From positions 705,309 to 769,308 of the forward strand of contig CAJINV010000015.1 of the NCBI GenBank assembly GCA_905178155.1: a DNA stretch of 64,000 nucleotides, written 5' to 3'. Positions 1 through 64,000 of the stretch are shown here, in pieces (positions within the stretch are counted from its first letter, which is position 1; each line of letters opens with the position of its first letter). The stretch comes from Amoebophrya sp. A120. Taxonomy: Eukaryota; Protista; Dinoflagellata. The position numbers and the translations under genes were made by a program. The notes below the pieces were generated by a model. That model saw only the letters and a program-made list of their open reading frames with translations. It had not been told where the DNA came from and did no database searches.

Positions 1-1134
1 CTTTCAACTCGACAAAGTAGTACACCCACTGTTCCTATCCAGGAAAAGACACCCATCCCCATCCAATTTGTCATGCAAAACACGCATAAGTGCCAATGTT
101 TGTCATGCAAAAAATGGATGGGGATGGGTGTTTTTCCTGGATAGTTCCGGGTACGTCACTTGCATGGATCCCTCGTCTAGAATCACGTCCTCCAAAAGTT
201 CCATCCCACCGCGGATGTTCCTCGCCAAGTGCCTCTGGTTCGTCTGCTCCAGTTATGAGAGTTCTACTACTGCGCAACGAGGACTCCTCCGCACTTGTCG
301 GGCATAAGCAGCAATACAAGCGTCGGCAAGACCAAGAGAATAAAGAGTGCACGTTGATTTGCATGACCACAGATTCACGCGAACAAGATCGTGGTCCTGC
401 TTGGGCTCCTGCCAGACGAGCCTGCACCTGTCATGCAAACAGTGCCAAGAAGCAAAGACCAGCCTTAGTATAGATACTTTTGCATGACAAATGAGGGGTC
501 CTCACAGTACCAGTTGTGCATTCTCGTACCAAAAGATCGATCAGACGGCGGATGAATTTTTCCCGCTTTGTGTCCGAATTGTTCCAAAACTCCGTGAAGA
601 GCCGCATCCTTTGGGGGTAGGTGAGACGGTGCTTGAAAAAGTTCAACACGTCGTCGCTAACATTCTTAGTCGTCAAAAACGGATACGAACCCTCCGGAAA
701 GGGTTTGGTGTGCTCGCTATCGAAAAAGCTGCACTTCAGCGGGTTTGTTTTAGATTTACCGGTTTGGCTTGATGAAGAAGAAGCAGAAGGAGTTGTTGAC
801 GCGTTGCTTTTATCGTAAAGAAGTCCACCCCAACTACCGGAAGACGACGGCTGTGGTGCAGCTCCTACTTTCTTCAAAAGCTTTGGCTGGTGCGCCGCAG
901 CAGGATCGGTTGCAAGAAGGGTATTGGTGTAGTTCGTCGGCGAAGAACTCATCGTTCCACCAGGCAACATTTTCTCGACCGCACCACCGGAACCCTTGGA
1001 GCTAGAGTTTGAGTTTTTGCCGGCTCCTGGTCCTGCTGCAGAGTTAAAATCATGCTGTCTTCTTAGTCGCACGCTGTGGTGCTGATCCTCGTCGGTTGAG
1101 TGCGATGTTGCGTCGGAATCCGAGGAGGCGCCTT
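1..1134 (-). CDS. Hypothetical protein, 3' part runs off the window; exons approx. 1134-529, 248-144, 30-1 (possible upstream exon 1240-1516)
   Basis: ORF 431..1072 joins in frame, after removing elements 254..528 and 36..143 plus 5 bp each, to give ...RRLIDLL/EQTNQRHLARNIRGGMELLEDVILDEGSMQVTYPE/QWVYYFVELK. No family recognised. Confidence 0.65.
36..143. mobile_element. Introner family A (108 bp)
   Basis: TIR TATCCAGGAAAA..CACCCATCCCCATCCA / TGGATGGGGATGGGTG..TTTTCCTGGATA; perfect 5-bp flank GTTCC on both sides. Confidence 0.95.
254..528. mobile_element. Degenerate introner-like intron (275 bp)
   Basis: Ends TATGAGA / TCTCGTA, flanks CCAGT/CCAAA, internal GCATGAC motifs; element plus 5 bp removal restores frame. 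Confidence 0.65.
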
Positions 1135-1975
1135 CTGTATGGAGGAGGAGAAGAAAAAAACTCTATCGGAATAAAAGCACCAAATGCTTAAACATAAATC
1201 TCCGAACCAAGTATATCATAATTGCTGGTCATCATCATGACAAAACTTGATGGCCGCTACCGTCGCTTTCTTGAACAGAATAGAGACGATGCAAAAGAAC
1301 TAGGAGCAAAGAATGTTGATGAAACTCCAGTCCAGGATACAACAATCGCGCGCAAGAAAGAAGGCAGCACAGAGCATACCTGAACAATCCTTGGTGTAGT
1401 GCTTGCAACATAGCCCCTCCCCCGACGGTGGTTTTCTTCTTGGATAGATGTTCGCCCATTTCGAGTAGTCGATAGGAGGCATTGTCAAGAAGAGCCGCGT
1501 GCTCTTGCCGTACCACTATTCAAGTTCAGCTGTTGTACCACTGTTTAAGTCCACAAAATAAAGGTCGAGTACGTCAACGTGGTGAGATGTTGAAGAAAAT
1601 CGATTTATAGGCAACCCTAAAATACAAGTAATAGAAGAAGTGTTGTCTTGTCTTCACGGATCAACGCAGAAAGATGAAAAATTTATAGTATATAGAATTG
1701 CATTCGCTTCAAATTCAACTTGGTTGTTAACGTTGGTGATGGTTGTGATGGTGGCCCTGACGCGAGTACTACATGAGCAAGAAAAGCATGATAGAGACAA
1801 TTATGGCCTCATCAGTAGCGCAGCAAAACAACGATAAAAGCAACTACCTCAACGCCAACTACTGCGACAAAAATACAGTTGATCTTCTCCATGCTGTATA
1901 CTTTCATTGAAGAACCAGATCCTCAGCGTAGCTGTCGCGGGGCCCAAACAAGTGAAGTGATCAGCGTCTTCAAAA

Positions 1976-3259: not shown

Positions 3260-5760
3260 TTACCGGTCCCAAATGCCGAAACCATCCATAACCAAAGCGT
3301 GTTGGTCGGTATCAAGTGTAAAAGTGTCTGGGCGGTCTGGAAGATTGCCAGGTTTGTCATGCACATTTTGCGTGACGTCTGATGTCTGTGATGCCTGCCC
3401 TAGCGTCACAGATTTTGTGAGGGCTTCCTGATGCCTATACCGCATGACCAATGCTCTTTCCGTGTAGCAAAACTTGGGCTCTCTTTGGTGCTGCTCATGC
3501 AATACAGAGATTTTTAGAATCCAAAATCAGCATGACAAGTTGGATTCTTCCAGACCCAGACATTTTTACAGTTGATAGTCGGGACGTTGAAAAAGCGCGT
3601 ACCCGTTCACCCACATAGCGAGATATCCAAAGTAGTAAACAAGTTTTCATTTCCATACACGTACGATAAAAGCTGTTCGTTGAATGATGCCAGGGTGCAT
3701 CATCTTCCTGACTAAGTACCGTCTTATTTGAAGTTCGGTTTTTATTTTTTACTTCTCTCGAAGCAAGAGAGCATGACAAAGAACTCGGGTGATGTTGTGT
3801 CTTCACAGCTTGTTCAACGAAAATATCCTGCGGCGGTAGTTCAAGTTATTGAGTTTAATTTTGATGAATACTGTGCGATGCATTCACTGATATTAGGCCA
3901 ATTTTTTACATTTCGTACGTGTCCGGTAAAGAAACAGAAAGTTTGTTTTGCGTACCAGCGAGGAGACATCGTTCGGGAAGGCTTGGAGGTCCTGGATGTG
4001 CCAGTTTTTATTTTTGAACCGTTTCATGTCCCGATATCAAGTGCAATTTTGTCTGGGTCTGGAAACCTGTGATGCTGAATTGAGCATGATTGAAGCGCTT
4101 GCAATGGCAGCCAAGCATGATAATTTTTTGAGACGCCTTCTGATGCCTAGCACGCATCACAAATTGCGTTTTTGCATGACAAAGAATCCTTCTCTTTTGC
4201 TGCTCATGCAACACAGATTTTCCGGGAATGCAAGACACGCATCACAAGTTCCACTTTTCCAGACCCAGACATTCTTGCATTTGATACCCGCACCGTTTTG
4301 TCAATGATGATGAGCCGCAGATGGCCAAGCTTCGGATCTTATGCAGCGCAAAAGTATCGTACTCGTAGTAATTGCATTTGTGCATGACAAATCTTTTTCT
4401 CAAGGGAAATCAGCATTACAAGTTTACTTTGTAATGCTGGGCTAATTTGTAATGCAATTTATACTAGTACGATGCTTCTGCATTGCATAGATCTGCATGG
4501 TGAACCCCGTCCAGCATGAACACTTCCCACCCACTGAACAGCGGCGGCGTGGCGGGAGAATTCACATCGAAGGCCTACTATCAAATGTAAAAGTGTCTGG
4601 GTCTGGAAGATTGCCACGTTTGTCATGCATATTTTGAATGACCCATGACGTCTGTGATGCATGACCTAGCTGGCATCACAGATTTTTAGAGCACTTTTTG
4701 ATGCCTCTACCGCATGAGAAACGCCCTCTCCACGTAGCACAAACTGGAGTCCTTTTGCTGGTCATGCAATACAAATTTTTTTAGAATCCACAGACAGCAT
4801 TACAAGTTTAGAATCTTCCAGGCCCAGACATTTTTACATCTGATACCTTCCATGTGTTTACCACTGTGCGGAGAGGAGCAGGCTCAACGTCCTGGTCGTG
4901 TTCCGGCCGCTGCAGCTGGTTATCAACTGTGAAAGTGTCTGGGTCTGGAAGATTGCCAGGCTTGTCATGCATATTTTGCATGACTCCTCAAGTCTGTGAT
5001 GCATGCCCTAGCATCACAGATTTTTAGAGGGCTTCCTCATGCCCATTCCGCATGACAAATGCTCTTTCCGTGCTGCAAAATTTGGACTCTCTTTGTCTTT
5101 GCTGCTCATGCAATACAGATTTTTTTAGAATCCAAAATCAGCATGACAAGTTGGATTCTTCCAGACCCAGACATTTTTACAGCTGATACTGCTCCCCGTC
5201 TTGCAGCTGGTCTTGTTGATGTTCTTGCTCGTCGGAATTGTAGTGGCCTTCATAACGCTATCCTCTGCAAGAAAAGTGAGTATCGCTATCGCGCTCTCAA
5301 TCTGAATGACAAGTCTTGTTTCTTAGGCAGAAAGAATTACAAAGTATTTCACTTTTATTAATCTTCATGCTGCGCAAGTTATTTGATGTCATGCGGTTGT
5401 TGATACATAAAGCTCCGAATCAGTACTGCGATATTTTCACTTTTGCAATGCATAAACGCGGATCCGGGAGAAAAGCAAGGCCATGGAGCTTGTCGTGCTC
5501 CTGGTTTGCCTCGAGCTGGTCGTATTCCTCGGGATCTGGGTATCCTGTGCAAAAACTCAACGTACCAGTAGTAGTACCCATCCCACCAGATTTATGTCAT
5601 GCAATTCTTGCTCTTGTTCTTCTGGCAAGTAGGGCCGGAGGTCGTCAGTCACTCCTCGTCCTCCCTGATGTTGCAAAATTTTTGCATAAATAAGGGCGTT
5701 GATGCGTAGCTGTGTATGTTGGGTGGAGCAAGAACCTTTCATGGCGCTCCTCCTCTAAGC
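3260..5760 (-). CDS. Hypothetical protein split by at least 6 introners (5' end may extend to about 5950)
   Basis: Hand-spliced: DPEEYDQLEANQEHDKLHGLAFLPDPR/YEGHYNSDEQEHQQDQLQDGEQ/LQRPEHDQDVEPAPLRTVVNTWK/AFDVNSPATPPLFSGWEVFMLDGVHHAD/PKLGHLRLIIIDKTVR/DMKRFKNKNWHIQDLQAFPNDVSSLVRKTNFLFLYRT...FGYLAMWVNGYALFQRPD/QHALVMDGFGIWDR*. The frame is kept at every marked element junction. Confidence 0.8.
3310..3577. mobile_element. Introner family B (268 bp)
   Basis: TIR TATCAAGTGTAAAAGTGTCTGG / CCAGACATTTTTACAGTTGATA; TSD GTCGG/GTCGG. Confidence 0.95.
4035..4286. mobile_element. Introner family B (252 bp)
   Basis: TATCAA..TGTCTGGGTCTGGAA / TTCCAGACCCAGACA..TTGATA; flanks CCCGA/CCCGC. Confidence 0.9.
4340..4489. 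mobile_element. Introner family C (150 bp)
   Basis: TIR TATGCAGCGCAAAAGTATCGTACT / AGTACGATGCTTCTGCATTGCATA; TSD GATCT/GATCT. Confidence 0.95.
4579..4845. mobile_element. Introner family B (267 bp)
   Basis: Family B TIRs; flanks CCTAC/CCTTC; interior is the reverse complement of the 59880..60145 copy. Confidence 0.9.
4921..5188. mobile_element. Introner family B (268 bp)
   Basis: Family B TIRs; flanks CTGGT/CTGCT; close relative of 3310..3577. Confidence 0.9.
5259..5454. mobile_element. Diverged family C-like introner (196 bp)
   Basis: TATCCTCTGCAAGAAAAGTGA / TCACTTTTGCAATGCATA; TSD AACGC/AACGC; frame restored. Confidence 0.85.
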
Positions 5761-5969
5761 AGGAATACATAAACAAACGGCCACCTCGAGTACTCACTAG
5801 AAGATGTTGTTGTAGCCGCGGCGGCCACGAGGGCGGCGCTACCTGGTTGTACAACGTACTTAAGCATGACAAGAAAAGCCAGATGCTTGTTGTTTTCACG
5901 ACTCGTGAAGTAGTAGACCCCGCTCTTCAAGAGTGGTCTTGCGAATGAACTACAAATCCCCAAAAAAAA

Positions 5970-7270
5970 CATTCAGAAAAAAACACCCATCCCCATCCAT
6001 TTTGCCATTTTTTTAATGCAAAAAAATCATGAAAAATAAATAAAAAAAGAAAAAAATCCGAAATATTTTTTGCATGGCATTTGCGAGAAGTGCTAACTGA
6101 TGGAGCTAGCTAGTGGCGTCAGTGGCTGCACATACTTTCGCTATGTGATTTTAAGGTGGCTAGCTGAAACCGAGATCCGAACCACGACCGAGAAATACAA
6201 CTCGCCGAAGCCAGTTCTCGTCGTTGGGCACCTCTGGTCCCATGGAGGTTTTGAACTTTTGGCGCAGTCACGCACAGATACCCAGAGGTAGCGGAGAACT
6301 CGCCAAGAACGCCGCGGCTGCACCATTGAAATTAGCGGGAGCAGCACCAGCTGCGCAATTATCATCGATAGTTGCAGAGCAGATCTTGCGTTCCAGCTCA
6401 CGAAAAAAAAACGATTTTTTTTTTCGCAAAAAAATGTCACGCTTTTGAAAATGCTCACTTTTTTGATGGATGATGTTTTTTCGCACGACGGCACCACAAA
6501 TATTGGATCGACCCATCCAGTCCATTTTCTTGTAGAAGTGGCTGGATGGGTCGAGGCAATATTTGTGGTACCGTCGTGCGAAAAAACATCATCCACAAAA
6601 AAGTAGGAATTCTTGCAATTTTCAAAATGACACTAGAATTTGTGGATGATGTTTTTTCGCACGACGGTGCCACAAATATTGCTTCGACCCATCCAGCCAT
6701 TTCTAGAAGAAAATGGACTGGATGGGTCGATCCAATATTTGTGGTACCGTCGTGCGAAAAAACATCATCCATCAAAAACAAGGTCAATTTCAAAAACGAA
6801 ATTTTTTTGGAAAAAAAACAAAATCAAAAAGTTTTTCCTACGGCAGCCTTGCCGAACAGCAAAAGTCTTCCCGTCCTGAATTTGTATTATCCACTCGAAC
6901 CGAAAGGACAGCACGTGTCAAAATCCATCCCAGGTCCGTCGCTTTCATCCCATGTGGCGACGCGGCGGCATGGCGATATGGCCACTGCAAAATGGGCCAA
7001 GCGATGGGGCCAGAGTCGATGTGCGGCGGCGAAAAGAGGCTTTTGCAGGATCTGGAAGTCGTCGCCTGCTGCGATGACCTGTGATGGACCTAGCAAATTT
7101 CATTCATGTCAAAAGTTCCTAGCTATGACGCCACTTTAGCTATGTCACCATTAAAGTGATTGCTTCCGATGCCGATTGGTGACAACCCTGAAAATTTTTT
7201 GAAAAAAAGCCGGTTTTTTTTTGTTGAAAAAATAGCAAAATGGATGGGGATGGGTGTTTTTTTCTGGATA
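5970..7270. mobile_element. 1301-bp non-autonomous TIR element, copy 1 (family A termini)
   Basis: Reverse complement of 43588..44888 almost base for base. Left terminus altered (CATTCAG instead of TATCCAG) and no TSD visible. Confidence 0.9.
6460..6778. repeat. Compound palindrome: four approx. 57-bp units in U,U',U,U' order forming two mutually inverted approx. 135-bp hairpins
   Basis: Unit TGGATGATGTTTTTTCGCACGACGGYRCCACAAATATTG..TCGACCCATCCAG at about 6467 and 6643, reverse complements ending at about 6594 and 6771. Confidence 0.9.
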
Positions 7271-7342
7271 ATTATCTTCTTGACTTCTACGGGGTGAAGA
7301 TGGGCACTACGTAGTGTACGTAGAACTAAAAGTTCTTTTTAC

Positions 7343-10300
7343 TCAGGATAGCACTTCGCCAATGATCATGGGAACCCAAACCGGCTGCTTCCCCGGAGCC
7401 AGAACCGCATGCGGTTCGTCTTGACCGAGAAGCTCCTGCCTGTATCCAAGAAAAAAAACGTTGTTAGTGTAAATTTGTGATGCGCAACACTCAAGATGAT
7501 TTCGTGTTTCATGCATGGCATGCATCGTAAGGCCCATTAAAGGGCGTTTTCACGTCGTACTATCTGCGCATGACAGGTTTTTGCTGTCATGCCAGACAAA
7601 TTTGTAATGCTATTCCTTCAAAAAAGTTAGACCTACAATGTTTTTTTCTTGGATAGCCCGGTCTCGGGGTTCACGACCGCGACGTTCTCGCGCCCGTGCA
7701 ACAGCTTCTGCACTTTCGCGTGCAAAGCGCTCCGCTGCCACTTGTGCAGGTTTGTCGCTTCTGAGCCCACCAGCGTCGCCGGGTCGACCTCCTCAACCAC
7801 CGGACGACCCGCGTTTGCAACAGCGTGAGGAGGAGGAGGGCCCGCGGCCGCGCCCGCAGGGTTCCCGAAGGGGACTCCACCACTGCGCGGGCGAGGCAAC
7901 GGCCCTTCTTGTAGAAGTGGTCCACCAGTAGCAGTACCCCCGACAGCATCAAGAGGCGCGATCTATCCAGTGCAAAGATCGTGTCTGGGTCGGGAAGGAT
8001 GCAAGGTTTGTCATGCACGTTTTGCATGACTTCTCCTAACGTCAGTGATGCATGGACTAGCATCACAGATTTTGCGAGGGCTTCCTGAGTGATGCCTTTA
8101 TCGCATGAGAAATGCCCTCGCGCCGTGGCAAAAACTGCACCACCACCTCTTTTACTGTCCATGCAATTATACAGATTTTTGTAGTATTTGTAGTATGCAG
8201 ACGCAACATCACAAGTTACATCCTTCCAGACCCAGACACATTTGCAATCCATACAGCCCCTCCTCCACCTGCATCGTGCGGCCCCAGACTGGCAGGAAAA
8301 GAAGAACTTGTACCTTGCGCCGCGGCAAGAAATGCTGGATCCTGTGCGTGAAGATGTTGTAGCCCTCCTGCATCAAGATCATGTTCATGTTGAGCAGGTA
8401 AGGCTGGAGCAGGTGGTTGGAGACCATACTCGCCCCCTTGTAGTCCTCCCCAGCCGACGGCAGGAAGAGCATGCGGAATCATGCTTCCACCCGCTACTGC
8501 TTGTAGTCCAGTATGCGGATCCAAATCACCACCGCCGAGATGAGATGTTGCTGTATCAAGACCATGGCTGAGTAGAAAGCCCCCATCTGGGGCATTTATA
8601 TTTTGCATTTGCTCCGTAACAGTGCTGCCGGTAAAAGCACCAGCCCCAGAAGCCGTGGCTGGCGAGGTGGTCCTAGACAGCCCCACCTTTTGAATCAGCT
8701 CCCACAAATCGGTTCCCACCTGCTGCTTCACCACTTCCGTGAGCCCGGTCTTGCGGCTGAAGTAAGCCGCCCGCACCACCGTGTTACCACTTGCCGGTTG
8801 GTCGCGAGGCCAGGCGACGGCCACCACCGCCACGTTTGCCTGCGGGTTGGCACCACCCGAGTAGGGATTTTGGTACGCCGTGGACATGGCAATGTCGGCT
8901 AGAATGATCTTGCCCTCGCACCGCAGCTCCGCCTTGCCTTGCGGCTGAATACTGTGTCCGTTCACGATGCGGTCCACCCCGAAAAACTGCAGAGCAGCTA
9001 TCCAGGAAAAAACACCCATCCACATCCAATTTGTCATGCAAAACATACATAAAGTTCTGTGTTTGTCATGCAATAAATGGATGTGGATGGGTTTTTTTTC
9101 TGTGGATAGCAGCATCGACTTCACTACAGTCGGGCGGCTGCTCTCCCGGGAGCCCATGAGTGCTGCGGCCCCAAAAAGGGGACGGCGTCCGCAGATTGGG
9201 GTTCTGATAATAGACTGCTTTGCCAAGGTATGGGGGTGCCAGGATCGAAATCGACAAAATCGAAAAAGTTTGCGACGCATAGAATGTAGGGCACGCAAGG
9301 CCTGTATTGGGGAGCAGGCAAATGAGACCGATTGCGTTCTTGAGCCCGCTTAAGGGTATGCAACGCGCTCCGCTGCCGGAGTTGGAGTAGCATGACAGGA
9401 GCAGTCTTCTTTGCCCAAACAGCACGACAGGCTGGATTTTGGTGCTCCTGAAATTTGTCATGCGCCAATAGAAAACCGAGCTGGTATCGGTTTTAATATG
9501 CGTCGCAAATTATTTCGAGTGCGTTGATTTCGATCCTGACGCCTCCATACCTCGAGGGCGGGGTCCCCGTCCATCACATCGAGGCCATCGAGGTCCTGGC
9601 TCGTGCTTGTCTCCACGAGCGAAAAAAGGTCCTCGTGCACTGCGCGTAAAACGTCGTCGCGAAATTTCGGGTTTTGCATGATCTCGTTCTCGATCTCGGC
9701 AACGCTCGCACTGTTGACAACAGTCCCGCGCATTGTCCGAGCCTGGCTCTCGACCGCGACTCGAAGCACATGATCCATCACAGCATTGCTGATGCTCGCA
9801 TGCATGTACAGCGTGCGCCCCACCACCACCATGCTGTCCGCGCGCGTCCGGAGTTTTTCAAAAAGCCAGCCGCCCGGTCCCCAGGCCTCTCCGTAGTCCG
9901 CCCGAGGAGCCCAGGACCCTGTAAAAGGGTCCGGGTTCGCGTTCTCAGCTGATATTGATTGGACCGACGAAGGTGGTCTGCTTGTGGCCCATGAAGATTC
10001 GGGCTCCTTTATCGTATGCAAAAACGTCCCCGCCACGGCATAGTCAAGATGGGAAATCGGCTAGACAAATCCACAAGCTTTGGCTGTATTGCATGACAAA
10101 TTTGGACTCGTAGCGTAGTGCTGTTTGAGCTAGCTCAGCAGCATCACAAATCTAGTACATCATGCTGATTGGAGCATGACAAATTGCAAAAAACGACTAG
10201 AAATCGCTCCTCATGGGGCTCCACATGAGAAACATGTTCAGCATGCAGATGTGCATGACAACTATGGGGTGGGGACGTTTTTAAATACGATATCCTTGGT

Positions 10301-12801: not shown

Positions 12802-12929
12802 TCAATTTCAAATGCAGGTCATAAACAGGTCCGAATTAGGTCAGAAATCCAGAATGTAATATAGGGACGGGATTCCTGACCTAATTCTGACCTAATTCGG
12901 ACCTTTTTCTGACCTCCATTTCAAATTGA
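12802..12929. repeat. Inverted repeat with approx. 45-bp arms
   Basis: TCAATTTCAAATGCAGGTCATAAACAGGTCCGAATTAGGTCAGAA pairs with TTCTGACCTAATTCGGACCTTTTTCTGACCTCCATTTCAAATTGA. Confidence 0.85.
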
Positions 12930-12970
12930 GCCGGAGGCCATGATCTTCGTCCCAAATTGGCCCAGACCCA

Positions 12971-15738: not shown

Positions 15739-15750
15739 TCAAAATCAACT

Positions 15751-21204: not shown

Positions 21205-21253
21205 GCTCGGGCTTTTTTGACAACAAAGGCTTTGTTGTCAAAAAAGCCCGAGC
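21205..21253. repeat. Perfect 24-bp palindrome with 1-nt spacer
   Basis: GCTCGGGCTTTTTTGACAACAAAG-G-CTTTGTTGTCAAAAAAGCCCGAGC; outer arms TTTATCAAGCG/CGCTTGATAAA at about 21178 and 21278. Confidence 0.95.
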
Positions 21254-51400: not shown

Positions 51401-54089
51401 TTGCGACTGCGGTTGCGCTAGTACTTGGGGAAGGAGGATTCTCTTCGCGAAGATCAGAAATCCCAGTCTGGTTAATATTGGCAGCTGCGCCTTGTTCGGA
51501 AGCTGCTGTGCCTCGTGTACCAGCGGAAGTAGCTGTGCCGCGTGTAGTTGTACCAGCGGAAGTAGCTGTGCCGCGTGCATCTCCAGCATCATCTCCTCCC
51601 AACATGGTCGTACTTCCTGCTTCACCCCCCGGCGCCCCACCAGCGGCAAGAGCTGCAAGCCGGCGCTCCCGATCCTCTCTATCCCGGCTGTCCCTGGTCA
51701 CGTAAATCATGTGCGTCCTCGGCTTCGCTTTTCCCGGGAAAAATACTTTTTTCCACGCGAGCAGCGTGCCCAGTAAAATCGCCAGGTACCCGCCGACACA
51801 CAGCTCGAAAGATAAGACTTGGCTGGTCCGGGTTTCGCCGAAGAAGATCGCAAGTAAGATATGCATTGCAAAAGTATCGCACTAGTATAAACCAGCCATG
51901 CTCCGGCTACCGCCGGAGCGCGCGGCTGTTTGGCCGGGTTTGAACTGCTTGCGGACCGGACCACAACGACATGCATACTTAGGCCCCCTCAGCACCGTCT
52001 GCGCGCTTCCCGCGCCTAAGGGCGCTCTGCGCAGGGAGGAGCTACCACTAGCATTGGGGCAGAACAGGAGGCACCTAGATGCCACACCAGTCCGCTACGC
52101 ATGCCTTTCGTTAATCAAGACGAACCAAGAACCGGCCCGCCCCACCCCATTCCCCGGCGCCGCTTTTTCAATGACTTCAGTGTGGGAGGGGGGCGCGAGA
52201 GGGTGCGCGAGAGGGTGGCGCGAGAGGGTGGCGCGAGAGGGTGGCGGGGGCTGGCGCCGAACAAAACAAGTCCGCGAAGGGCCTGCAATGCTAAATATGG
52301 GGAATACCATGCGGATTCGCGCCCGCCACTTTGTGTCTTTACCCTCTCGCAGACCCTCTTTTTTACCTCTTTTGGGGGTCCCCGCTAATAATCCGGCTAT
52401 ACTCGCGGGTAGAGGTCGACAGAGGTGGCCCAGAGGTGGCCGAGAGGGTGCGCGAGAGGTTGGCCCTTATTCGCGCCACCTCCCTCGCCCTCTGTCGACC
52501 TCTCGCGCCCCCTCTTTTTGACCTCTCTGCACCCTCTGAGGCACTTAGGCGCCGCCTTAAGGTGGGTCCTTCGGCGGGCTATACTCGCGCACCCTCTCGC
52601 CGACCCTCTCGAAAGGGGTCCCGCGCCACCTCTCCACCTCTGTCGACCTCTTTTTTACCTCTTTTGACCTCTTTTTGACCTCTCGGCCACCTCTTGTTTA
52701 CCCTCTGTCTACCTCTTTTTTCGCATGAATATAATATATAGTAATCGCATGACAAATTTTGCCAAGAGCAAAAATGGGATTTGTCATGCTGAAAAAGGTA
52801 GACACAGATATCTGTCATGCACGAACAACAACACGAACGCAATTAGTACGAGTACGATGCTTTTGCAAAGGATATAAGAATCGAATCAACGACATCGTGA
52901 CGCCGCCGCAATATCGAATCCGCTGCAGGGCCTCGAGGTAGAAGGCATCACGGGTTTCAGCGGTTTTCCGGAAATGTTCCAGCTGTTCTTTTAATCTTTT
53001 GTTTTCCTCTTGCAAATCGGTTTGCTGTTGCTCCAGTCTCAGCAGGCGCTCCTCGAGGGAAGTAGGGGGCGCAGCAGCCGCGCTTTCTCGTCGTGGTGAT
53101 CCTGGATTTCTCCCTGGCCTCGAGTGAAAGTTTTCCTCTATTTGCTCTTCCATCTTTTCCTGCAGCAGGGCGGGGACAAATTTCGTGTCGTGCTTGTTGC
53201 GAGGAATTATATCGTCGTCATGGCCCATGCCCATCACCTTCTCGCGCGCAATCTCTTGCAGCTCTTCCTCTTGCTTCATCTCGCCCACCTCTACTTGTAC
53301 GGACACTTTTTCAGCAGCTCCTGCAGCCTCAACATCAGCTTGGACCACGAAAGAACTTTCGCCGTCAGGAGAGAGGACCATTTCCGCGTTCTTGTGTATG
53401 TGTTCGGTATGCTCGTCCTGATTCCGCTCTCCAGCTGCTTTCATGCCTACTTCGCTACCGTCATCGACGTCGTCATGCGTCAAATGTGACTGATCGTGTT
53501 CCCGTGCTATGTGTTCAACAGCAACTTGATGCTGCTGTGCCGCACGACGACCGTCGTTGTGACCACCATCATCACCTACACCTAGTATTCTTCGACGTGG
53601 CTGCAAAAACGAGTTGTTTGATTGCTCTGTTTGTGCATCTGAGTCTGACTGCGTGTTCCTCTTCACAGCCTCGTCTAGATCCTTCACTTCTGAGTAGAAG
53701 CGGTCGCTTTCCACTTGTTGCGCAAGCGGAGCAACTCCAGGAGGTGTAGGCAGCTCACCCCCTGCAGCAGCCTCCGAGTGGTGTGCTAACACAGCCTCCT
53801 CTCCCAGGTGGTCCAGCACTCCGTCCTCATTTCTATGCCGCTCTGCCACCTGCTGGTGGTCTCTTCTTTCTAAAAACTTGTGGTGCGTAGACGAACTAGG
53901 AGCTTCACGCCTGTCATCCCCTGGTGCTGGTGACGCACCACCTGTCGAAAGAGCTGAAACTTGTCTAGGGAAATAACTCTTTTGTAAAACGCCTGAGAAA
54001 TTAAACGCTGTGAAAAGACTCAATAGAATGAGATGAAGAAAAGGCGATCTACATCGAACGACGATGGCATGCTGCATAAACTGCATCAT
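48452..54089 (-). CDS. Multi-pass membrane protein with N-terminal signal-like segment and acidic/His-rich region; 5 introner introns
   Basis: In-frame joins SLIRFL/LAIFFGE, PLHS/YRSWCRWKKLS/xIGDHGD, AHY/VNQLNPD, AMLL/SFQLSKRW; several hydrophobic helices. Frag1/DRAM-like resemblance is only tentative. Confidence 0.85.
48757..49056. mobile_element. Introner family E (300 bp)
   Basis: TATTGCAATGAAAAATCCCCCCTCCCCATATC / GATTTGGGGTGGGAACTTTTTTCACTTTGATA; TSD CAAGA/CAAGA. Confidence 0.92.
49105..49260. mobile_element. Introner family C (156 bp)
   Basis: Family C TIRs; TSD TAGTG/TAGTG. Confidence 0.95.
50578..50905. mobile_element. Introner family E (328 bp)
   Basis: Family E TIRs; flanks CGCTC/GGCTC. 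Confidence 0.9.
50946..51198. mobile_element. Introner family B (253 bp)
   Basis: Family B TIRs; flanks GAACG/GAGTG; frame restored. Confidence 0.9.
51860..52874. mobile_element. Introner family C expanded to 1015 bp by a nested Helitron-like insert
   Basis: TATGCATTGCAAAAGTATCG / CGATGCTTTTGCAAAGGATA; TSD TAAGA/TAAGA; 162 bp remain after removing 51892..52744. Confidence 0.92.
51892..52744 (-). mobile_element. Non-autonomous Helitron-like element, copy 1 (853 bp)
   Basis: Minus strand starts TTACTATATATTATATTCATGCG and ends GCTCCGGC-GGTA-GCCGGAGC-ATGGCTGG; inserted between A and T with no TSD. Confidence 0.8.
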
Positions 54090-55832: not shown

Positions 55833-58800
55833 CTACAAATCGTCCATGTCGACTTCCATGATCTCCTTTTTCTCCACTACTTCTTCCTCGATGACCTCCT
55901 CCTCGATAATTTATGAACTGCAAAAGTATCGCACTCGTAGTAATTGCAGTCATGCATTACAAATCTTGTTCTTAAGGTAAATCCGCATAACAAACTTTCT
56001 TTCTCATGTTAAGGAAATTTGTAATGCATTTCTACTAGTACGAGTACGATGCAACTTTTGCAATGCATATAATTTCCTCCTCCACGATCTTCTCGGCGTT
56101 GTTCGCAGCACTACTTCCGCCCTGATTCCACCACTCGTTGCCACCAGTTTGTGCTGAGGATCCAGCTGCTGCCCCCTGTAGTTTGAGTTATTTTCAGTAA
56201 GTTTAGAAGTACAACGCAGTCGGAGCTGCTGCACATGTTGATGAGGCATGACGTAAGTTTGTTTGCACTTGTTGCTTTAGAAGAGCTGAAAACATCAAGA
56301 AAACCAAAACGGAAGTCCAATGACACAACAAGAACAAAAATCACATACCGTCTCCACCCACTTATTCGTTGCATCATCCCACTTCCAGTTTCCGTCCTTA
56401 TTCCAATTATCTGTCGCACCGTAATTGTTGTTGTAGCCAGAAGAGGAAGCAGCAGCTGCACCGGAGGAATTATTGTTGTAGCTGTAGTCTTTGTTGTAGT
56501 TGTCCCGATCGTTATAACCGGTACCGGATGAGCCCCAGTTATTGTCGTCCTTGCTTTTGTTCCAGTCTTTATTGTTGTTCCAGTCGTTATAATTCCAAGA
56601 ACCACTGTCCCACTTGCTCTTGTCGTCGTCTTTGTTCTTTTTATCCCAACCTTCCCAGTTGGACGAAGTTGCAGCTTTTTTCTCCACTTCTTCCTCTTCT
56701 TCCGCACCAAAATTCGGATCCCAGGCCATGTCGGCGATGAGCTTCTCATGTTCGGTGAGCCCGCCGGTTTTCGTGAATTCGTAATTGGTAATATCGAAAG
56801 GAAAAACTCCCCCTCCCCATATCGAACAGGCATGTTTCCGAAAATTTGTGTTGCTGATTTGAGGTCACAAATCACGTTTGTCTTGCAAGGAGACAACGGC
56901 AAAAGCTTCGCCCCCATTATAGAAGCGATTTGTCATGCTGTTGGGCCTAAAGGGCAGCCGCTTGCCATGCTGAACAACTAGACCGATACGCCCCTACATA
57001 GCCTGGGGATCTGGCGGCAGTGCCTTCCTGCAATACAAAGCTGATTTGTGTACGCAAATCCAGCATCAGAAACTTCGTTTCGATATGGGGAGGGGGGATT
57101 TTTCCCTTTGATAGGTAAACTGGTGCTTTTGGTACCCGGTGACATCGTTGAATTGTTTCATCTATGCAGTGCAAAAGTATCGCACTCGTACTAATCGCAT
57201 TCATGCAAGACAAATTTCTTTTTCAAGCTAAATCAGCATGAGAAATTCCACATGTCATGCTGAGCTAATTTGTATTGCAATACTACGAGTACGATACTTT
57301 TGCAGTTCATATCATCGTGTCATGCATTTCCGCTTTCTGGTGGACGAAGGGCGCGAACTTGCTATCCGTTTCGAAAGTCGGCTCCTTGTAAACCAAACCC
57401 CCGCTGGATTGAATGACCTGCTGTTCCTTGCCCTGCTTGTCCTTCACCGGAACAATTTTCCACTCCTTGTCGCTGACTGTCGCGATGAGCGACAAATCCT
57501 TCACCGCGTTATTCAGCACTGCAACCTGCAAGGCCTGCATCGCGATGTCGTCTTTCTTTTCCGGACTGCTTTGGACGGATTTATCCTGGATCGCTTTCAC
57601 ACCAGACAGTTCGTTCTGCTCGGCGGCGGCGGAGGCGATCTCCTGTTTCTTCTTTTCAAACGCCTCCTTCCCGAGGCACACGTAGTTGCCGTTTAGTGGG
57701 TTTTTCGGGTTCTCCAAAATTTTCCAGCTCTGGTGTTCTTGCTCCCACCGCGCAATATGACAACCTCAGGTTGGAAATCCTCAAAGTGCAAATTACTATC
57801 TATTATATTCATGCGAAAGTAGAGGTCTACAGAGGGTCGAAGAGAGGTGGCCGAGAGGTAAAAAAGAGGTCGACAGAGGTCAAAAAGAGGTCGACAGAGG
57901 TGGAGAGGTGGCGCGGGAGGTCATTCGAGAGGGTGGCCGAGAGGGTGCGCGAGTATAGCCCGCCGAAGGGCTCGCCCTAAGGCCGCGCCTATAGGGACCA
58001 GAGGGGGCCGAGAGGGTCCAGAGAGGGTAAGCGAGAGGTGGACAGAGGTGCCGGGAGGTTGCGCGAATAAGGGCGAACCTCTCGCGCACCCTCTGGGCCA
58101 CCTCTCGGCCACCTCTGTAGACCTCTACCGGCGAGTATAGCCGGATTATTAGCAACACCTCTCGGGAGAGGTCAAAAAGAGGGTCTGCGAGAGGGTCAGA
58201 AAACCCCGAATCCGCCCGGCTCGCGGCCGGTTTTGTTTGGGCCTTTTCATCGCGCAGGCCCGCACCCTCTCGCGCTACCCTCTCGCGCACCCTCTCGCGC
58301 CACCCTCTCGCGCCACCCTCTCGCGCTACCCTCTCGCGCTACCCTCTCGCGCTCCCCTCTCGTGCCAACCATTTCCGTCGGGAAGCAAATAGGGCGGGGG
58401 CGGGATGGTGATCAAAATAGGGCAGCGCGGCCCCCGTTCTGCTTCCTTCGGCACCTATGTCGAGGTGGCTTCTCTTCGCCCCCAAGCTTCGTTGCAGTTG
58501 CTCCCTGCGCATAGCGCCAGCAGGCGCGGGAAGCGCGCAGGAGGCCGCGCGGGCTGACATGGCGCAAACCGGCGCCAGTAGTTCCCTCGGTCTGTCACGC
58601 TGTGCCCAAAGACCCGGCGCTGCGGTCCGACCCGCGCATTGTCCTGCCCCGCCACAACAGCCTTGCGCCCCGGCGGCAGCCGGGGCATGGCTGGTAATTT
58701 GTAATGCAAAAAAACGACTCCAGTTGAAGCGCCATTTGTAGTCGGCGCATGACAAATTTCCTGGGCCCTTAAAGCATGTCTGTCATGCAGGTTAAGGCAA

Positions 58801-61800
58801 AGGGGTGCGCTTCTGTCGTGCTAAGCAGCACTCCAATTCTTGACCCCCAGCAGGACAATAGTCGGCCTCCATTGTGTCCTCTGCAATACAGTCTTTTTTG
58901 AGTCGTTGTCGTATTTCATGCATCACAAATCATTTCCACTTTGAGGATTTCCATTGTTCTGAGGCTTTCATACGCAATTACCACGCTGTCGTACTTTTCG
59001 ATCGCCAACCGGGATTATCAAATGTAAAAATGTCTGGGTCTGGAAGAATGCAACTTGTAATGCGTATTTCAAAACACAGAAAAGTCTCTCATGCATACGT
59101 AGCAAAAGCTGCCCCCTTTCTGTCAGCAAAATAGGGGACTTGTCATGCGGATTCGGCATTGCGGAAGCTTCTCGAAACCTGTGATGCTAGAGCTTCCATG
59201 CCAGACCTTCTGTGTCATGCAAAAACAGCATGCCTCTTCCAGACCCAGACATTTTTACATTTGATATGGATTCTTCCTGCTTCTTGCTGTTTTTCTCCTT
59301 CAAAATCGTCAAGTGGATCTTCGGGATGATGATCAGCTTTGACTTGATTTGCAGCGCCACCCGGAAGTGCTCCTCGTCGATGACCTGGCGGAACTCGCAG
59401 AGCTGGCCCTTGTAGGGATTTTTGTCCGTCGACTTCATGATCTTCATCCGCAAACCCTTGTAGGGGTGGGCCTTTTTTTGCCCCTTTTCTTTGTCGTGCA
59501 ACTCCTGCCACTTCAGCGGAATTTTGTCGGGCCTTTGCTCCTCCTCCTTAATAATAGCCAGCTCTTGCTTCTGCGTCGTCAGTGCTTTCTGTACCGCAGA
59601 ACCGTGGGTCAAAGCCAGCGTGCCCATGTCGGCTGTGTTTTGTTGGTGCATGAAGAACATTATCGAACTTCAAAAAAGGCTGTTCTTGCGGACATGTTGA
59701 ACATATGAATTTGAACTACAGCTGCTGCATCTGTATCTATAACCACATGAACAACATCTTCCCAGAAGTAGTGCTACGTACTGCTAGCAGCAAAAAAATT
59801 CACTATATCAAAAATACCCGCGACTTGATTTATGGTTGCCAGCTGCCGTTCCACCATACCCCCGTCTTTTCGCGTCGCTTATCAAATGCAAAAATGTCTG
59901 GGTCTGGAACATTCTAAACTTGTGATGCTGTCTGTGGATTCTGAAAAAATTTGTATTGCATGAACAGCAAGAGGACTCCAGTTTGTGCTACGCGGAGAAC
60001 AAGGCGGCTCTCATGCGGTAGAGGTATCAGAAAGCGCTCTAAAAATCTGCGATGCTGCGGCATGCATCACAGACGTCATGGGTCATGGAAAATATGCATG
60101 ACAAGTCTAGAAATCTTCCAGACTCAGACATTTTTACATTTGATATCGCTGCGGCTTCGTCAATTGCGTATTTCTCGGTCTTGCTGGTTGTCAAAGCCAG
60201 TTGATTCTATCCTGAGTAAAAACGTACCCACACCAGAGTTGTAATGCAGATTTGCAAAGACAGGAAGACTTGTAATGCGCATCCCCATGAGAGCCATTTC
60301 CAATCGTGTTTTGGAATTTGTGATGCTGTGAACAGGATGAGCAGATGAATCTGTGATGCGGCTACACTTGCTAACCTGCACTACACTGCATACGGCAACT
60401 TGTCATGCGTGACTCACAAAACTCCTAGGTTTGTGTTGCAAAATCCTCATCCTGACTCTGGTGTGGGTACGTTTTTACTCAGGATAGATTCGCCTGCGAC
60501 TTCTTCGCTTCCGGTCCGAAGTCTCGTAGGCCGCCCTTCACCGCTTTCTCGAGTTTGCAGTCAGTACCACGGACGAACATCCAGTCGTTTTTGTTTTCAT
60601 CGTCCCGAATGTACATGCCGTCGGTGAGAATGTGCATGATGCGCTGCGTGCTCTGGTTCGTCTGGGCCCCTGACCCGGAGATTTGTTTGTTCTGCATGAA
60701 CCGGCACTGCACTGCGTCGAGTTCGTAAAGCAGACGCCCATCGTTGTCCGCCTGGACTAGCCTGCCTTGCGTGCCACGTTTAAGACCGAACTCCCCCTTT
60801 ATTGCTTCACTTATCGTTTTCTCGGACTTCGCGTTGGACTTCAGATGGCATTCTGTTTTGGTGATGATGTGTTGCATTTAGTTGGATTTTTGATCATGAA
60901 GATGGTCGTGCACGTGCTCGTCTTCATGCATGAAAATTTCATGTGTACTACTACGTCTATCAAGCGATGATCGTGATGTCCTTGAAAGAGAAAGCCTCTC
61001 ATTTCAATTCAAGCAGAACAACAATCAAAAACAAAGCAAAAAGCATCTTCGTATTAAATACCGCTCTGCTTCACGTCCAGCACGGTATTTGCGGTGCTCA
61101 AGACCTTCATGCCGTCGTTGGGAAACAACTGTAAAACGACCGCCGGCTGGCTACTAACCCCGTCCCCCTGCTCTACATGGACTAGGTCGTAGAGTGTGAA
61201 GGCAGAGCCTGCTGCGAAGGTGGTTTTGTCCACCTCGTCTTGATTGGTGGTCATGTTCGTCTGCATTGAGTACTTGTCTTGCTCGAACGTTACCTTCACG
61301 TCGTTGATGGGCAAGTGCACTTCCTCGGGCCAGCCGTCCATCCCCAAGGACGCAAAGGCGACGATTACCGTTTGCGCATCGGTGTCCGCCTTGATCACGT
61401 CTCCTATCCTCCCCCGCTGCTTCGCATGGTGGGAAATCACCTTCACGCGCTGCCCCGGCTCGAAATACTTGCAGCACTCACGGGGGTCTACTACGACGTG
61501 ACCTGATAGTTTTTGTTTTGATAGGATGAAATACTTTCTTGTCGGTGTCATGCGAAATTCAAAACTGCGAATCGTTTTTATTGGGTTATTTTCCTTGACA
61601 CGTTCGTACTAACTGTCCTCCAAATAGGAAATTCACAACAAATCACTATCACACCTATTTTCCCGATTCCCAGATCCCCCAGCCTCGGTTCCACCATCAT
61701 CGTTCCGTTTTCCAACATTTTTCTCACGGTCGCCTATGGATGTGTCAGAGTTGAAATCGACAAAGTTGAAGTAACTTGCAATGCATAAAATCGATACCAG

Positions 61801-64000
61801 TTGCAAGTCCAATTTGTAAGCGGCGCATGACAAATTTGAGTAGAGTCGAAATCTAGTTTGTAATGCTGTTTGGGTAAGGAGGACGCCTTTTGTGATGCTA
61901 CTTGAGCAGCTCTATTTCTAACCCGAAACAGGCTCACAATCTGCCTCCCTTGCCTACTCTGCAAGACAGACATTTTCTGCGTTGCATTTTATGCATGACA
62001 AACTATTTCAACTTTGACGATTTCAATCCTGTCAGTTCCATATCGCGACCACACCTTTCAATTGCCCCATATACACCTCGATCTTGTCCCCCGTTTCGAA
62101 CGGGTTTTTCTCTTTCACCATCAAATCCTCTGCCCCTAGTTGCACGTGCCCCTGCGCATCCAGCCCCGCGGTCACGCTTTCGTCGACGGCCGCGTAATCT
62201 TCTGGCATCAACTATCCACAGGAAGTTTCATCCTGTACATGATGTACAAATGCAGTTTCTGCATGACAAAACTTTCTTTCAATTCTATTGTGCATGACAA
62301 GTGGCATGCTCCTCCAAGTTGGTGACATTATTTGTGATGCATTTTGTACATGTACAGGAAATTTGTATTGCATATCAACACGTTGGAAAAGTCGTTCTTC
62401 TCCGCCATGGTGGCGTTGTATCAAATGCAAATTATATGTCTGGGTCTGGAAACTTGTAATGCTGAATGGCCATGATTGACTGCGCCTTTGAGTACAGTGC
62501 GGCATGACAAATTCTTCAAACGCCCTGTCATGCGCAGGACGCATTACAAACTACGTTTTTGCATGACGAAGGTGAGGTGCTGTATTTGCTGCTTATACAA
62601 TACAGATTTTTTAGGAATGCGAAACACGCAATACAGGCTCAACCTTTCCAGACCCAGACATATTTGCAGTTGATACGTTCACAAAGGGGTCGATCTTCGC
62701 GAGGGGAAAGTGTTTGAAGATGTGCCCGGACTGTCTTGTAAACGTGTCGCCGTTGGTCTGAAAGCAGCGGATCCCCATGTACTCGATGTCGCGTAATTCT
62801 TCGACAAAAATTATCCCCAACTCCTTCCTGTTCGCGGTGTCGTAGGTGAAAAATTGCGCGGGCGGCTTTGGTTCCTTGCCCGCTCTTATTTTCGTGTTTT
62901 TGTTCCCGAATTTTTGTGGTCGGTCGATATTTGTGCCGTAATTGGTCAAACCGCCGGTCCAAGTGTTGACGTCGCGGGGGAGGCGGGGCTTCATGCGGAC
63001 CTGCACGCCCTTCTCGTCTATTTTCAGGACGCGCCCGAGGTCGCCACGGTAGGTGCCATTGGCGAGGACGCGGACGAATTCTGTATGAATCAATGCATTA
63101 CAAATTAGCATGAGAAACAAATGACATTTGTAATGCGAACTTACCTTACGAAGAAGATTTGTATATGCATGACTGCAATACGAGTACGATATTAAAAACA
63201 AGAGTAAGTACGTCCAGCCTTGATGTGGCTGTGCGGCGTGGTTCCAGCTTGGCCCATGCACTGCCTCAATACGTTGAAGGAATCGTCAGGTGGTACTAAT
63301 CTTGTGTCCCAGGCCGAAACGCCGCGGATTCCTTGCAAGAATTTCCGCAGTTCTTGCTCCTTAAAGGCCTCGATGTAGATGTAGTCTGTTTTGATGGTTT
63401 TGATTTGTGTATTTCGGAGGGGACCCCAAAGGCAAAACCAAAGGTCTAACAATCTTCATCAAAAATCTAAACGTCATGCAGCAGTGCGCGTCACCAGCGA
63501 ACAAGCAGAACAAAACAACATATGCATGTCACATCAGATCGCAAGAAGTACTGTCATACATGAGTATGTACATCAAGATCGCATCAAGAAGTACTTTTTA
63601 TATTCCTGCTGGCCAGCACGGAGAACACGGGGGAGACGAAGTCCGGGTCTTCCTTCTGTTTGTAGGCCATTTTTGTCGTAATCGTGTTACAGACGTCAAT
63701 TCCCTCGCCGAAAATTTTCACGCACCACAGTTTCGGGTCCGACTGCCGCATGAGAACCGGCTCGGTGGCCGGGCCGGGGGTTACTCGGTCCGGTTTTCCT
63801 ATGGATGTGTCAGAGTTGAAATCGACAAAGTTGAAATAATTTGTCATGCATAAAATGGATGCCAGTTGGAACCCAGTTCCCAAGTGGCGCATGACAAATT
63901 TCGGCGGTCCCTAAATCCAGTTTGTCATGCTGTTTAGGCAAAGAAGAGTGATTTTCACCTGCTCCTGTAGCAGCTCGAGCTGTAACCCCAAACAGGCTGA
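55833..64000 (-). CDS. SPT5: Transcription elongation factor SPT5 (5' end outside the window), at least 14 introns
   Basis: NGN domain DPKLWCVK..DYIYIEAFKE; KOW motifs FVRVLANGTYRGDLGRV, FETGDKIEVYMGQLKGVVATV, KYFEPGQRVKVI and YKGQLCEFRQV. The 3' exon chain was hand-spliced in frame to the stop at 55833. Confidence 0.93.
55912..56069. mobile_element. Introner family C (158 bp)
   Basis: Family C TIRs; TSD TAATT/TAATT. Confidence 0.93.
56792..57113. mobile_element. Introner family E (322 bp)
   Basis: Family E TIRs; TSD GGTAA/GGTAA; opposite orientation to 50578..50905. Confidence 0.93.
57163..57311. mobile_element. Introner family C (149 bp)
   Basis: Family C TIRs; TSD TCATC/TCATC. Confidence 0.95.
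57756..58972. mobile_element. Introner family G expanded to 1217 bp by a nested Helitron-like insert
   Basis: TATGA..CCTCAG..TGGAAATCCTCAAAGTG / CACTTTGAGGATTTCCA..CTGAGG..TCATA; TSD CGCAA/CGCAA; 315 bp remain after removing 57793..58694. Confidence 0.92.
57793..58694 (+). mobile_element. Non-autonomous Helitron-like element, copy 2 (902 bp)
   Basis: Starts TTACTATCTATTATATTCATGCG and ends GCCCCGGC-GGCA-GCCGGGGC-ATGGCTGG; A|T insertion with no TSD; internal ACCCTCTCGCGC tandem array shared with copy 1. Confidence 0.8.
59016..59266. mobile_element. Introner family B (251 bp)
   Basis: Family B TIRs; flanks GGGAT/TGGAT. Confidence 0.92.
59661..59816. mobile_element. Highly degenerate C-size intron (156 bp)
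   Basis: TATCGAACTTCAAAAA...AAAAATA; removal plus 5 bp joins NQVAG/FMHQQ in SPT5. Confidence 0.55.
59880..60145. mobile_element. Introner family B (266 bp)
   Basis: Family B TIRs; TSD TCGCT/TCGCT. Confidence 0.95.
60208..60486. mobile_element. Introner family F (279 bp)
   Basis: Perfect 32-bp TIR TATCCTGAGTAAAAACGTACCCACACCAGAGT; TSD GATTC/GATTC. Confidence 0.95.
61735..62042. mobile_element. Introner family G (308 bp)
   Basis: Family G TIRs; flanks TCGCC/TCGCG; splits an SPT5 KOW motif. Confidence 0.92.
62213..62374. mobile_element. Introner, singleton family (162 bp)
   Basis: TATCCA..TCCTGTACATG / CATGTACAGGA..TGCATA; TSD TCAAC/TCAAC. Confidence 0.88.
62419..62675. mobile_element. Introner family B (257 bp)
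   Basis: Family B TIRs; flanks CGTTG/CGTTC. Confidence 0.92.
63800..64000. mobile_element. Introner family G, truncated by the window end
   Basis: TATGGATGTGTCAGAGTTGAAATCGACAAAGTTGAA start is identical to the 61735 copy. Confidence 0.9.

What the first reader, a model, noticed from the sequence alone, without database searches (positions are those of the whole stretch)
36..64000. Window-wide system of about 40 TIR elements that behave as precisely removed non-canonical introns
Seen: at least 7-8 families with different TIR interiors nearly all begin TAT and end ATA, sit in coding sequence and have a 5-bp flanking duplication (perfect in about half). Deleting element plus 5 bp restores the frame at nearly every junction I spliced (5541..5692 and 12098..12532 stayed ambiguous), and rebuilds the phosphatase motifs DxHG/GDxxDRG/GNHE, SPT5 KOW motifs and the UGT. 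For 51860..52874 (flank TCTTA on the coding strand) none of the six possible registers gives GT/GC-AG. Known: introner elements with inverted and direct repeats and non-canonical splice sites have been described in Amoebophrya. Inference: one transposase lineage and one excision rule (termini plus 5-nt duplication) serve all families. No transposase is encoded in this window.
Basis: partly seen in the sequence, partly recalled or inferred. Interest (0 to 1): 0.8.

Follow-up and report, generated by a model that had tools for sequence, protein, structure and literature searches.

The report
Transposon introns cut at fixed register
These are the already published hairpin-ended transposon introns of the marine parasite Amoebophrya A120; spliced sequence assemblies lack each element plus five flanking bases, with the cut one base before and four bases after the element wherever it can be placed, likely made by a spliceosome that no longer needs the usual GT-AG ends.

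Summary
The window is Amoebophrya sp. A120: its annotated 2438-aa protein maps at 100% to 23608..3263. These are the introner elements of Farhat et al. 2021, so the system is already known. What the tests add is the cut position, which that paper calls variable or unknown. All 13 of 13 element junctions read exactly in spliced contigs remove element + 5 nt, and only one register fits all 13: 1 nt before TAT, 4 nt after ATA. The same register alone rebuilds the 28-intron protein without a difference. Introns thus read N-TAY...ATA-NNNN; 1 of 38 is GT-AG. The duplication is dispensable: 10 of 38 introns keep 2 or fewer of 5 matches. The paper's own Table S4 (all nine top A120 types are NT-NN) fits. 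A relaxed major spliceosome is the likeliest machine (about 55%, untested). One transposase lineage is plausible but not shown. The scan already reported this register on other pieces of this genome.

The parts
3263..23608 (-). Host gene, 2438-aa metallophosphatase-domain protein (P0001, named GSA120T00014286001 by its source); 28 introns, all of the N-TAY...ATA-N4 type
22137..22791 (-). Decayed element; intron 22133-22792, flank match 1/5, unique placement
   Evidence: protein; register 0 gives a stop here
20215..21687 (-). Long decayed element; flank 2/5
   Evidence: protein
19633..20058 (-). Decayed element, 5' TAC; flank 1/5, unique placement, no predicted end stem
   Evidence: protein
19238..19548 (-). 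Element; flank 0/5
18671..19169 (-). Decayed element, 5' TAC
   Evidence: protein
18323..18641 (-). Element; flank 3/5
   Evidence: contig piece stops at 18317
16557..17741 (-). Long decayed element, 5' TAC; contig skip 16553-17742 is unique and is register 1/4
15439..15835 (-). Element; flank 2/5; contig skip allows register 0 or 1 only
14328..14540 (-). Element; perfect flank; skip = element + 5
12087..13527 (-).
11653..11867 (-). Element
11418..11602 (-). Element; flank differs at the TAT-adjacent base; annotated Thr1606 excludes register 0
11014..11342 (-). Element; flank 3/5
10757..10912 (-). Element
10341..10669 (-). Element; flank 2/5
10010..10292 (-). Element
9229..9549 (-). Element; flank 2/5; annotated Glu1854 excludes register 2 and above
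8999..9108 (-). Element
7964..8253 (-). Element; flank 2/5
7443..7655 (-). Element; flank 4/5
5541..7350 (-).
5970..7270 (.). Nested inverted copy of 43588-44888, 99.85% identical, one terminus damaged
5259..5454 (-). Element
4921..5188 (-). Element; flank 4/5
4579..4845 (-). Element; the only one of 38 that reads GT-AG in register 1/4
4340..4489 (-). Element
4035..4286 (-). Element; flank 4/5
3624..3954 (-). Decayed element, 5' TAC, no predicted end stem
3310..3577 (-). Element
36..143 (-). Element, perfect flank; host frame weakly supported
26458..26767 (-). Decayed element; removal + 5 nt joins an 889-aa and a 395-aa frame, + 3, 4, 6, 7 do not
37354..37618 (-). Element in UGT gene (35542-38510)
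37679..37828 (-). Element in UGT gene
39999..40271 (-). Element in coiled-coil part of kinesin-like gene
41777..42246 (-). Element in kinesin-like gene
42471..42623 (-). Element in kinesin-like gene; flank 4/5; junction not read in contigs
42696..42946 (-). Element in kinesin-like gene
43588..44888 (-). 1301-nt element with internal palindrome, perfect TIR and flank
44937..45066 (-). Candidate decayed element, not counted among the 52
   Evidence: frame test uninformative
48757..49056 (-). Element in 1207-aa gene (48455-54152)
49105..49260 (-). Element in 1207-aa gene
50578..50905 (-). Element; contig skip excludes register 0
50946..51198 (-). Element; contig skip allows register 0-2
51860..52874 (-). 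1015-nt element; skip 1020; no GT/GC-AG placement
55912..56069 (-). Element in SPT5 gene; skip 163
56792..57113 (-). Element in SPT5 gene; skip 327
57163..57311 (-). Element in SPT5 gene; skip 154
57756..58972 (-). 1217-nt element in SPT5 gene; skip 1222
59016..59266 (-). Element; contig skip excludes register 0 (synonymous site)
59880..60145 (-). Element in SPT5 gene; skip 271
60208..60486 (-). Element in SPT5 gene; skip 284
61735..62042 (-). Element in SPT5 gene
62213..62374 (-). Element in SPT5 gene
62419..62675 (-). Element in SPT5 gene
63800..64000 (-). Element cut by the window edge, not counted
56176..56348 (-). Canonical GT-AG intron (control), donor GTAT
59633..59817 (-). Canonical GT-AG intron (control), donor GTAT
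60853..61061 (-). Canonical GT-AG intron (control), donor GTAT
61503..61654 (-). Canonical GT-AG intron (control), donor GTGT

Best explanation
These are the Amoebophrya A120 introner elements, non-coding hairpin-ended insertions with a 5-bp target duplication that are absent from spliced contigs as introns of the form N-TAY...ATA-NNNN, likely removed by a relaxed major spliceosome that reads the element's own ends. Shown: the removed stretch is element + 5 nt, the cut lies 1 nt before TAT and 4 nt after ATA, in either orientation, whatever the flanks read. Follows from this: a fresh insertion that duplicates 5 bp is removed without a scar at any site, which explains how the elements could spread through coding exons. 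Inferred: the TA of the 5' end sits at intron +2/+3 and stands in for the host donor (GTAT in 3 of 4 canonical introns here); G+1 and the 3' AG are not needed; the acceptor is set by a 4-nt ruler from the 3' ATA; the terminal hairpin brings the ends together in young copies and may replace U1. Inferred: mobilisation as MITE-like elements by an unidentified transposase acting in trans.
For: Identity: P0001 is 100% to the window and named Amoebophrya sp. A120 by its source; end motif TAT-N7-A-run is the one described in PMC7789003. Removal: 13 of 13 element junctions read exactly in X1 or X1-X3 contigs skip element + 5; registers 0/1/2/3/4/5 fit 10/13/11/10/10/10 of 13. Predicted contig coordinates 6360 and 7098 match after eight and nine further introns. 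Register 1 rebuilds all 2438 aa with 0 differences; register 0 stops at 272 aa, 2 and 3 give 8 and 11 differences, 4 and 5 stop at 2340. Not DNA-level: the same contigs skip 4 canonical introns, and X4 contigs are colinear across elements. Spliceosome: U+2 and A+3 in 38 of 38; canonical and element introns alternate in one transcript; Table S4 lists nine top A120 types, all NT-NN, and nine top A25 types, all TT-NN; 83 of 89 spliceosomal proteins found, U1 snRNA not found; precedent in Fritillaria.
Against: No lariat, branch point or snRNP contact was observed. First and last intron bases show no preferred pairing (16 combinations in 38), although the spliceosome's second step uses such a pair. 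The TA at +2/+3 is also just the transposon end, so it need not be a donor signal; canonical controls number only 4. X1-X3 are one sample of one study, not on record as RNA, and may not be independent of the annotation. Only 5 of the 13 contig junctions restrict the register; several are flagged 'between: not known' with sides of 34-57 nt. No transposase found. Figures 3 and S19-S25 of the paper could not be seen and may already show the register.
Confidence: 0.55

Rival explanations
1. Same elements and same fixed register, but removal is by a separate, non-spliceosomal or second machinery that recognises the paired ends and cuts at fixed spacers, as proposed for Euglena nonconventional introns.
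For: Euglena code is a paired motif at fixed spacers, 5'-N3CDG...CH-N5-6|R; its introns leave as circles, not lariats (review). Here 24 of 32 folded introns have a predicted end pair probability of 0.7 or more, the 3' ATA is kept in 38 of 38, no AG and no first-last base rule, U1 not found.
Against: Three of 32 folded introns (22133, 19629, 3620) have no predicted end stem yet are removed according to the annotated protein; 4 of 38 have TAC opposite ATA; the invariant bases coincide with spliceosomal U+2/R+3 in both A120 and A25.
Confidence: 0.33
2. The direct repeat itself guides removal (one repeat copy is lost, register free or variable), as the first reader's 'termini plus duplication' and the paper's 'variable' border imply.
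For: [quoted passage not shown]
Against: 10 of 38 keep 2 or fewer matches and two keep none, yet all allow the 1/4 placement; unique placements at 16553-17742 (contig), 22133-22792 and 19629-20059 (protein) are all 1/4.
Confidence: 0.06
3. The skips are artefacts (reverse-transcriptase template switching at hairpins and repeats) or DNA alleles without the elements.
For: Hairpin plus direct repeat is the known setting for template switching (own knowledge); X1-X3 are only guessed to be RNA.
Against: Reading frames need the removal; junctions without a repeat are skipped exactly; the same contigs lack GT-AG introns and have no depth over 54262-54677; X4 contigs retain elements.
Confidence: 0.03

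Closest known systems
Introner elements among the non-canonical introns of Amoebophrya sp. A120 (Farhat et al. 2021, PMC7789003; seen: abstract, passages, sections 10, 12, 16, 25, supplement passages and part 3 of 5; figures not seen)
   Same: Same organism and elements: IR starting TAT + 7 nt + A-run, 3-5 nt direct repeats, many families, no internal transposase, non-GT-AG borders, 29,850 copies genome-wide.
   Different: The paper's text calls the splice site variable relative to the hairpin and the border unknown, and sees no splicing signature. Here one register (1 nt before, 4 nt after) fits every junction tested, the duplication is uniformly 5 bp, and it is dispensable.
Euglena nonconventional introns (PMC12501133, abstract and passages; review PMC11282704, section 6)
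   Same: TIR/TSD-like introns without GT-AG; paired terminal motif at fixed spacers from the junctions; coexist with canonical introns.
   Different: Motif CAG/CTG with spacers 3 and 5-6 and a purine after the junction; here TAY/ATA with spacers 1 and 4, and U+2 as in spliceosomal donors. Unrelated lineage.
Fritillaria borealis non-canonical introns (PMC13326754, abstract and section 30; Henriet 2019 seen only through a review)
   Same: TIR/TSD-derived introns with non-GT-AG ends on a genome scale, handled by an adapted major spliceosome.
   Different: Ends are mostly AG-AC/AG-AT, U1 is kept and U2AF duplicated; here neither terminal dinucleotide is fixed except U+2, and U1 was not found.
MITE-derived introners of Micromonas, Aureococcus and Polarella (passages in PMC7789003, PMC11282704, PMC12130899)
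   Same: Non-autonomous TIR elements with TSD become introns on insertion.
   Different: Those supply or co-opt GT/GC-AG sites and so depend on target sequence or orientation; here 37 of 38 are not GT-AG and both orientations are removed.

Membership tests
Amoebophrya A120 introner elements | Located in the A120 genome | tested here: met
   P0001, named A120 by its source, is 100% identical over 2438 aa
Amoebophrya A120 introner elements | IR motif TAT, seven less conserved bases, run of A | tested here: met
   78 ends of 39 elements: A at positions 11-14 in 67, 65, 73, 61
Amoebophrya A120 introner elements | 3-5 nt direct repeat at the borders | tested here: met
   5 bp; 25 of 42 perfect
Amoebophrya A120 introner elements | Removed from transcripts, mostly non-GT-AG | tested here: met
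   13 of 13 junctions skipped, none with a GT-AG placement; runs not on record as RNA
Amoebophrya A120 introner elements | Repeated, in families | tested here: met
   8 clusters among 51; one pair 99.85% identical
MITE / non-autonomous TIR DNA transposon | TIRs, constant-length TSD, no coding capacity | tested here: met
   no Pfam match in ORFs of long elements
MITE / non-autonomous TIR DNA transposon | Autonomous partner with the same ends and a transposase | not testable with these tools
   No genome held; none in 49 of 151 window ORFs; paper finds none in A120
MITE / non-autonomous TIR DNA transposon | Empty-site alleles with one TSD copy | not tested
   No close second strain among the runs laid: X7 and X8 gave 20 and 7 reads, none at 99% or more
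U2-type spliceosomal intron | GT/GC-AG termini | tested here: not met
   1 of 38 in register 1/4; only U+2/A+3 kept
U2-type spliceosomal intron | Branch point and lariat intermediate | not testable with these tools
   contigs only; no raw reads of this strain served
Euglena-type nonconventional intron | 5'-N3CDG / CH-N5-6|R signature | tested here: not met
   ends are N-TAY and ATA-N4; works alike as a spacer rule
Euglena-type nonconventional intron | Stable pairing of intron ends | tested here: inconclusive
   24 of 32 predicted paired, 3 of 32 not at all; 6 long introns not folded

The most novel reading that the evidence does not exclude
A120 has a second splicing code in which a transposon end is the whole signal: U+2/A+3 at the donor and a 4-nt ruler from ATA at the acceptor, tuned to the 5-bp duplication so that any insertion, at any site and in either orientation, is silent. 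A25 uses the same +2/+3 rule with a different end. The machine is a U1-less spliceosome, or a new one, that has given up G+1 and the 3' AG and may use the element-binding protein itself (shared internal GCATNACA motif) to define introns.
Probability: 0.3. Interest if true: 0.8.

Novelty: already known. Interest (0 to 1): 0.4.

Why it matters
The elements are published; the open question there is how tens of thousands of non-GT-AG introns are cut precisely. A fixed register turns 'no clear signature' into a short rule (N-TAY...ATA-NNNN) that can be checked genome-wide, corrects gene models at diverged flanks, tells where to look for lariats or circles, and explains why these insertions are harmless in exons. 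If a spliceosome does it, two of its most conserved requirements (G+1 and the 3' AG) have been dropped.

Tried and rejected
No whole genome held, so no genome-wide transposase search. Two homologous-protein searches (phosphatase exon, SPT5 exon; longer proteins up to 2000 aa) gave no hit; weak negatives. PDB search with an SPT5 exon found nothing; Rfam found nothing in the window. A 30-nt frame test on 14 elements could not tell +4, +5 and +6 apart and is not used. Other TSD lengths and registers 0, 2-5 were tested and rejected. The internal motif as a branch site was considered: it lies in both orientations at varied distances and is absent from 9 of 38 introns, so it is more likely a DNA-level subterminal site; untested. 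A first-last base rule was not found. Papers stating the 1/4 register were not found in four searches; most subscription journals are outside the library, and Roy et al. 2023 and Henriet et al. 2019 were not read.


Full report
Observation. The elements are there. TAT...ATA pairs with at least 16 of 25 complementary terminal bases and at least 4 of 5 matching flank bases number 30, against 0 in each of 20 shuffles. In a curated set of 42, the flanks match best as a 5-bp duplication (mean identity 0.87; other lengths 0.17-0.31), 25 perfectly; only 6 of 42 allow any GT/GC-AG placement. The ends read TAT, seven variable bases, then a run of A. Blastn groups 51 elements into 8 clusters and 13 singletons, with copies of one family in both orientations. 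With one more decayed copy the count is 52.

Source. A search of protein representatives with one exon returned a single protein, P0001, 2438 aa, which its source names Amoebophrya sp. A120 and which maps to 23608..3263 on the minus strand. Farhat et al. 2021 (PMC7789003) describe these elements in A120: IR motif TAT + 7 + A-run, 3-5 nt direct repeats, 29,850 copies, U1 snRNA not detected, no transposase in A120. The system is therefore already known. Their text says that splice sites are variable relative to the hairpin, that the border position remains unknown and that no clear signature was found. I could not see their figures 3 and S19-S25.

Removal. Contigs of runs X1-X3 (one sample, one study, guessed to be RNA) were laid on two stretches. 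On 49270-61730, 14 joints were listed, all in the three runs: 10 skip an element + 5 nt and 4 skip ordinary GT-AG introns. On 1-20000, adjacent pieces of one 7911-nt X1 contig give three more exact skips; most joint rows there were crowded out by run X4. A model removing element + 5 nt predicts the contig coordinates 6360 and 7098 exactly, across eight and nine further introns. X4 contigs are colinear and keep the elements. So the joined form behaves as spliced RNA, not as a DNA allele.

Register. With k = bases before TAT that go with the intron, the 13 exact junctions allow k = 0, 1, 2, 3, 4, 5 in 10, 13, 11, 10, 10, 10 cases. Eight do not restrict k; five do: 15439 (0-1), 16557 (1 only), 50578 (1-5), 59016 (1-6), 50946 (0-2). 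For P0001, every one of its 28 introns has a placement of the form N-TA(T/C)...ATA-NNNN. Shifting all 28 together, k = 1 gives 2438 aa with no difference; k = 0 stops at 272 aa; k = 2 and 3 give 8 and 11 differences; k = 4 and 5 stop at 2340 aa. The annotation was built from transcript alignments, so it may not be independent of the contigs. Table S4 of the paper gives genome-wide support that its authors did not draw out in the text I read: the nine top A120 types are all NT-NN and the nine top A25 types all TT-NN; k = 0 would give TA-NN and k = 5 NN-TA.

What the cut depends on. In the 38 introns taken without selection for hairpins (28 of P0001 and 10), U+2, A+3 and the ATA ending 4 nt before the junction are present in 38 of 38; +1 is C 12, A 11, G 10, T 5; the last two bases take 14 forms; one intron is GT-AG. 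The duplication is perfect in 15, and 2 of 5 or less in 10, including two with no match. So the ends, not the repeat, place the cut. End pairing decays with the repeat (positions 4-10: 5.3 of 7 in 23 young, 3.5 in 10 old, against 3.0 and 2.3 for shuffled partners), which may reflect ancestry alone. Folding at 20 C predicts paired ends in 24 of 32 introns and none in 3; 6 long ones were not folded. The three unpaired ones rest on the annotated protein only.

Mechanism. Shown: scar-free removal in a fixed register. Follows: 1 + 4 = 5, so a new insertion with a 5-bp duplication restores the exon exactly at any target and in either orientation. Inferred: the machine. I favour a relaxed major spliceosome (0.55): the invariant bases are those of a spliceosomal donor at +2/+3, three of four canonical donors here read GTAT, both intron kinds alternate in one transcript, nearly all spliceosomal proteins are present, and Fritillaria offers a precedent. 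Against it: no G+1, no AG, no first-last base rule, which the second step normally uses, and the TA may be only the transposon end. A separate machine as in Euglena, whose code is also a paired motif at fixed spacers, gets 0.33. Repeat-guided or variable cutting (0.06) and artefact (0.03) are unlikely.

Mobility. Constant ends, a constant 5-bp duplication, a motif GCATNACA shared by 29 of 38 introns and absent from 7.3 kb of exons, and a 99.85% identical pair fit MITE-like elements moved by one kind of enzyme. It was not found: 49 of 151 ORFs of 110 aa or more, including most of those in long elements, have no Pfam match, and no genome was held. PMC12130899 assigns A120 introners to several TE classes and describes a TIR-flanked family with retroelement-like ORFs. 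The single-lineage claim stays open.

Novelty. Elements: already known. The fixed 1/4 register was not found in print in four searches or in the parts of seven papers read, but unseen figures may show it. Eight earlier reports of this scan on other pieces of the genome state the same register; I had reached it before looking, and they are not independent support. Interest 0.4: a modest, well-supported refinement that makes a published open question testable.

Noticed in passing
window 5970-7270 and 43588-44888: A 1301-nt element with an internal palindrome occurs twice, inverted, 99.85% identical; one copy is nested inside intron 5537-7351 and has lost one terminus (a 6-nt loss would account for it). 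Points to recent movement; no Pfam match in its ORFs.
   Followed up: partly
inside elements, both strands: Motif GCATNACA (often followed by AAT): 90 in 17.3 kb of 38 element introns, 0 in 7.3 kb of P0001 exons, 1 in 4 canonical introns; shared by unrelated families. Searches for 'subterminal' and 'branch' in the main text of PMC7789003 did not show it.
   Followed up: partly
window about 63083-63211 and about 29437-29600: Introns with canonical-looking ends (read from the sequence, not from contigs) hold decayed element interiors; possible conversion of element introns to GT-AG.
   Followed up: no
window 51860-52874 and 57756-58972: Two elements with different TIRs share an 86% identical 410-nt GC-rich interior in opposite orientation: a further nested repeat family.
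   Followed up: partly
window 12950-13160, inside element 12087-13527: Tandem array of about 20-nt units inside the long element (seen).
   Followed up: no
window 45400-48000: GC-rich stretch (62% at 46-48 kb) upstream of the kinesin-like exons; 11 ORFs at 45000-48091 gave no Pfam match.
   Followed up: partly
whole window: All gene models built here lie on the minus strand, as in the unidirectional clusters described for Amoebophrya; element density is very uneven (28 in one gene, one found in 22.8-37.3 kb).
   Followed up: partly
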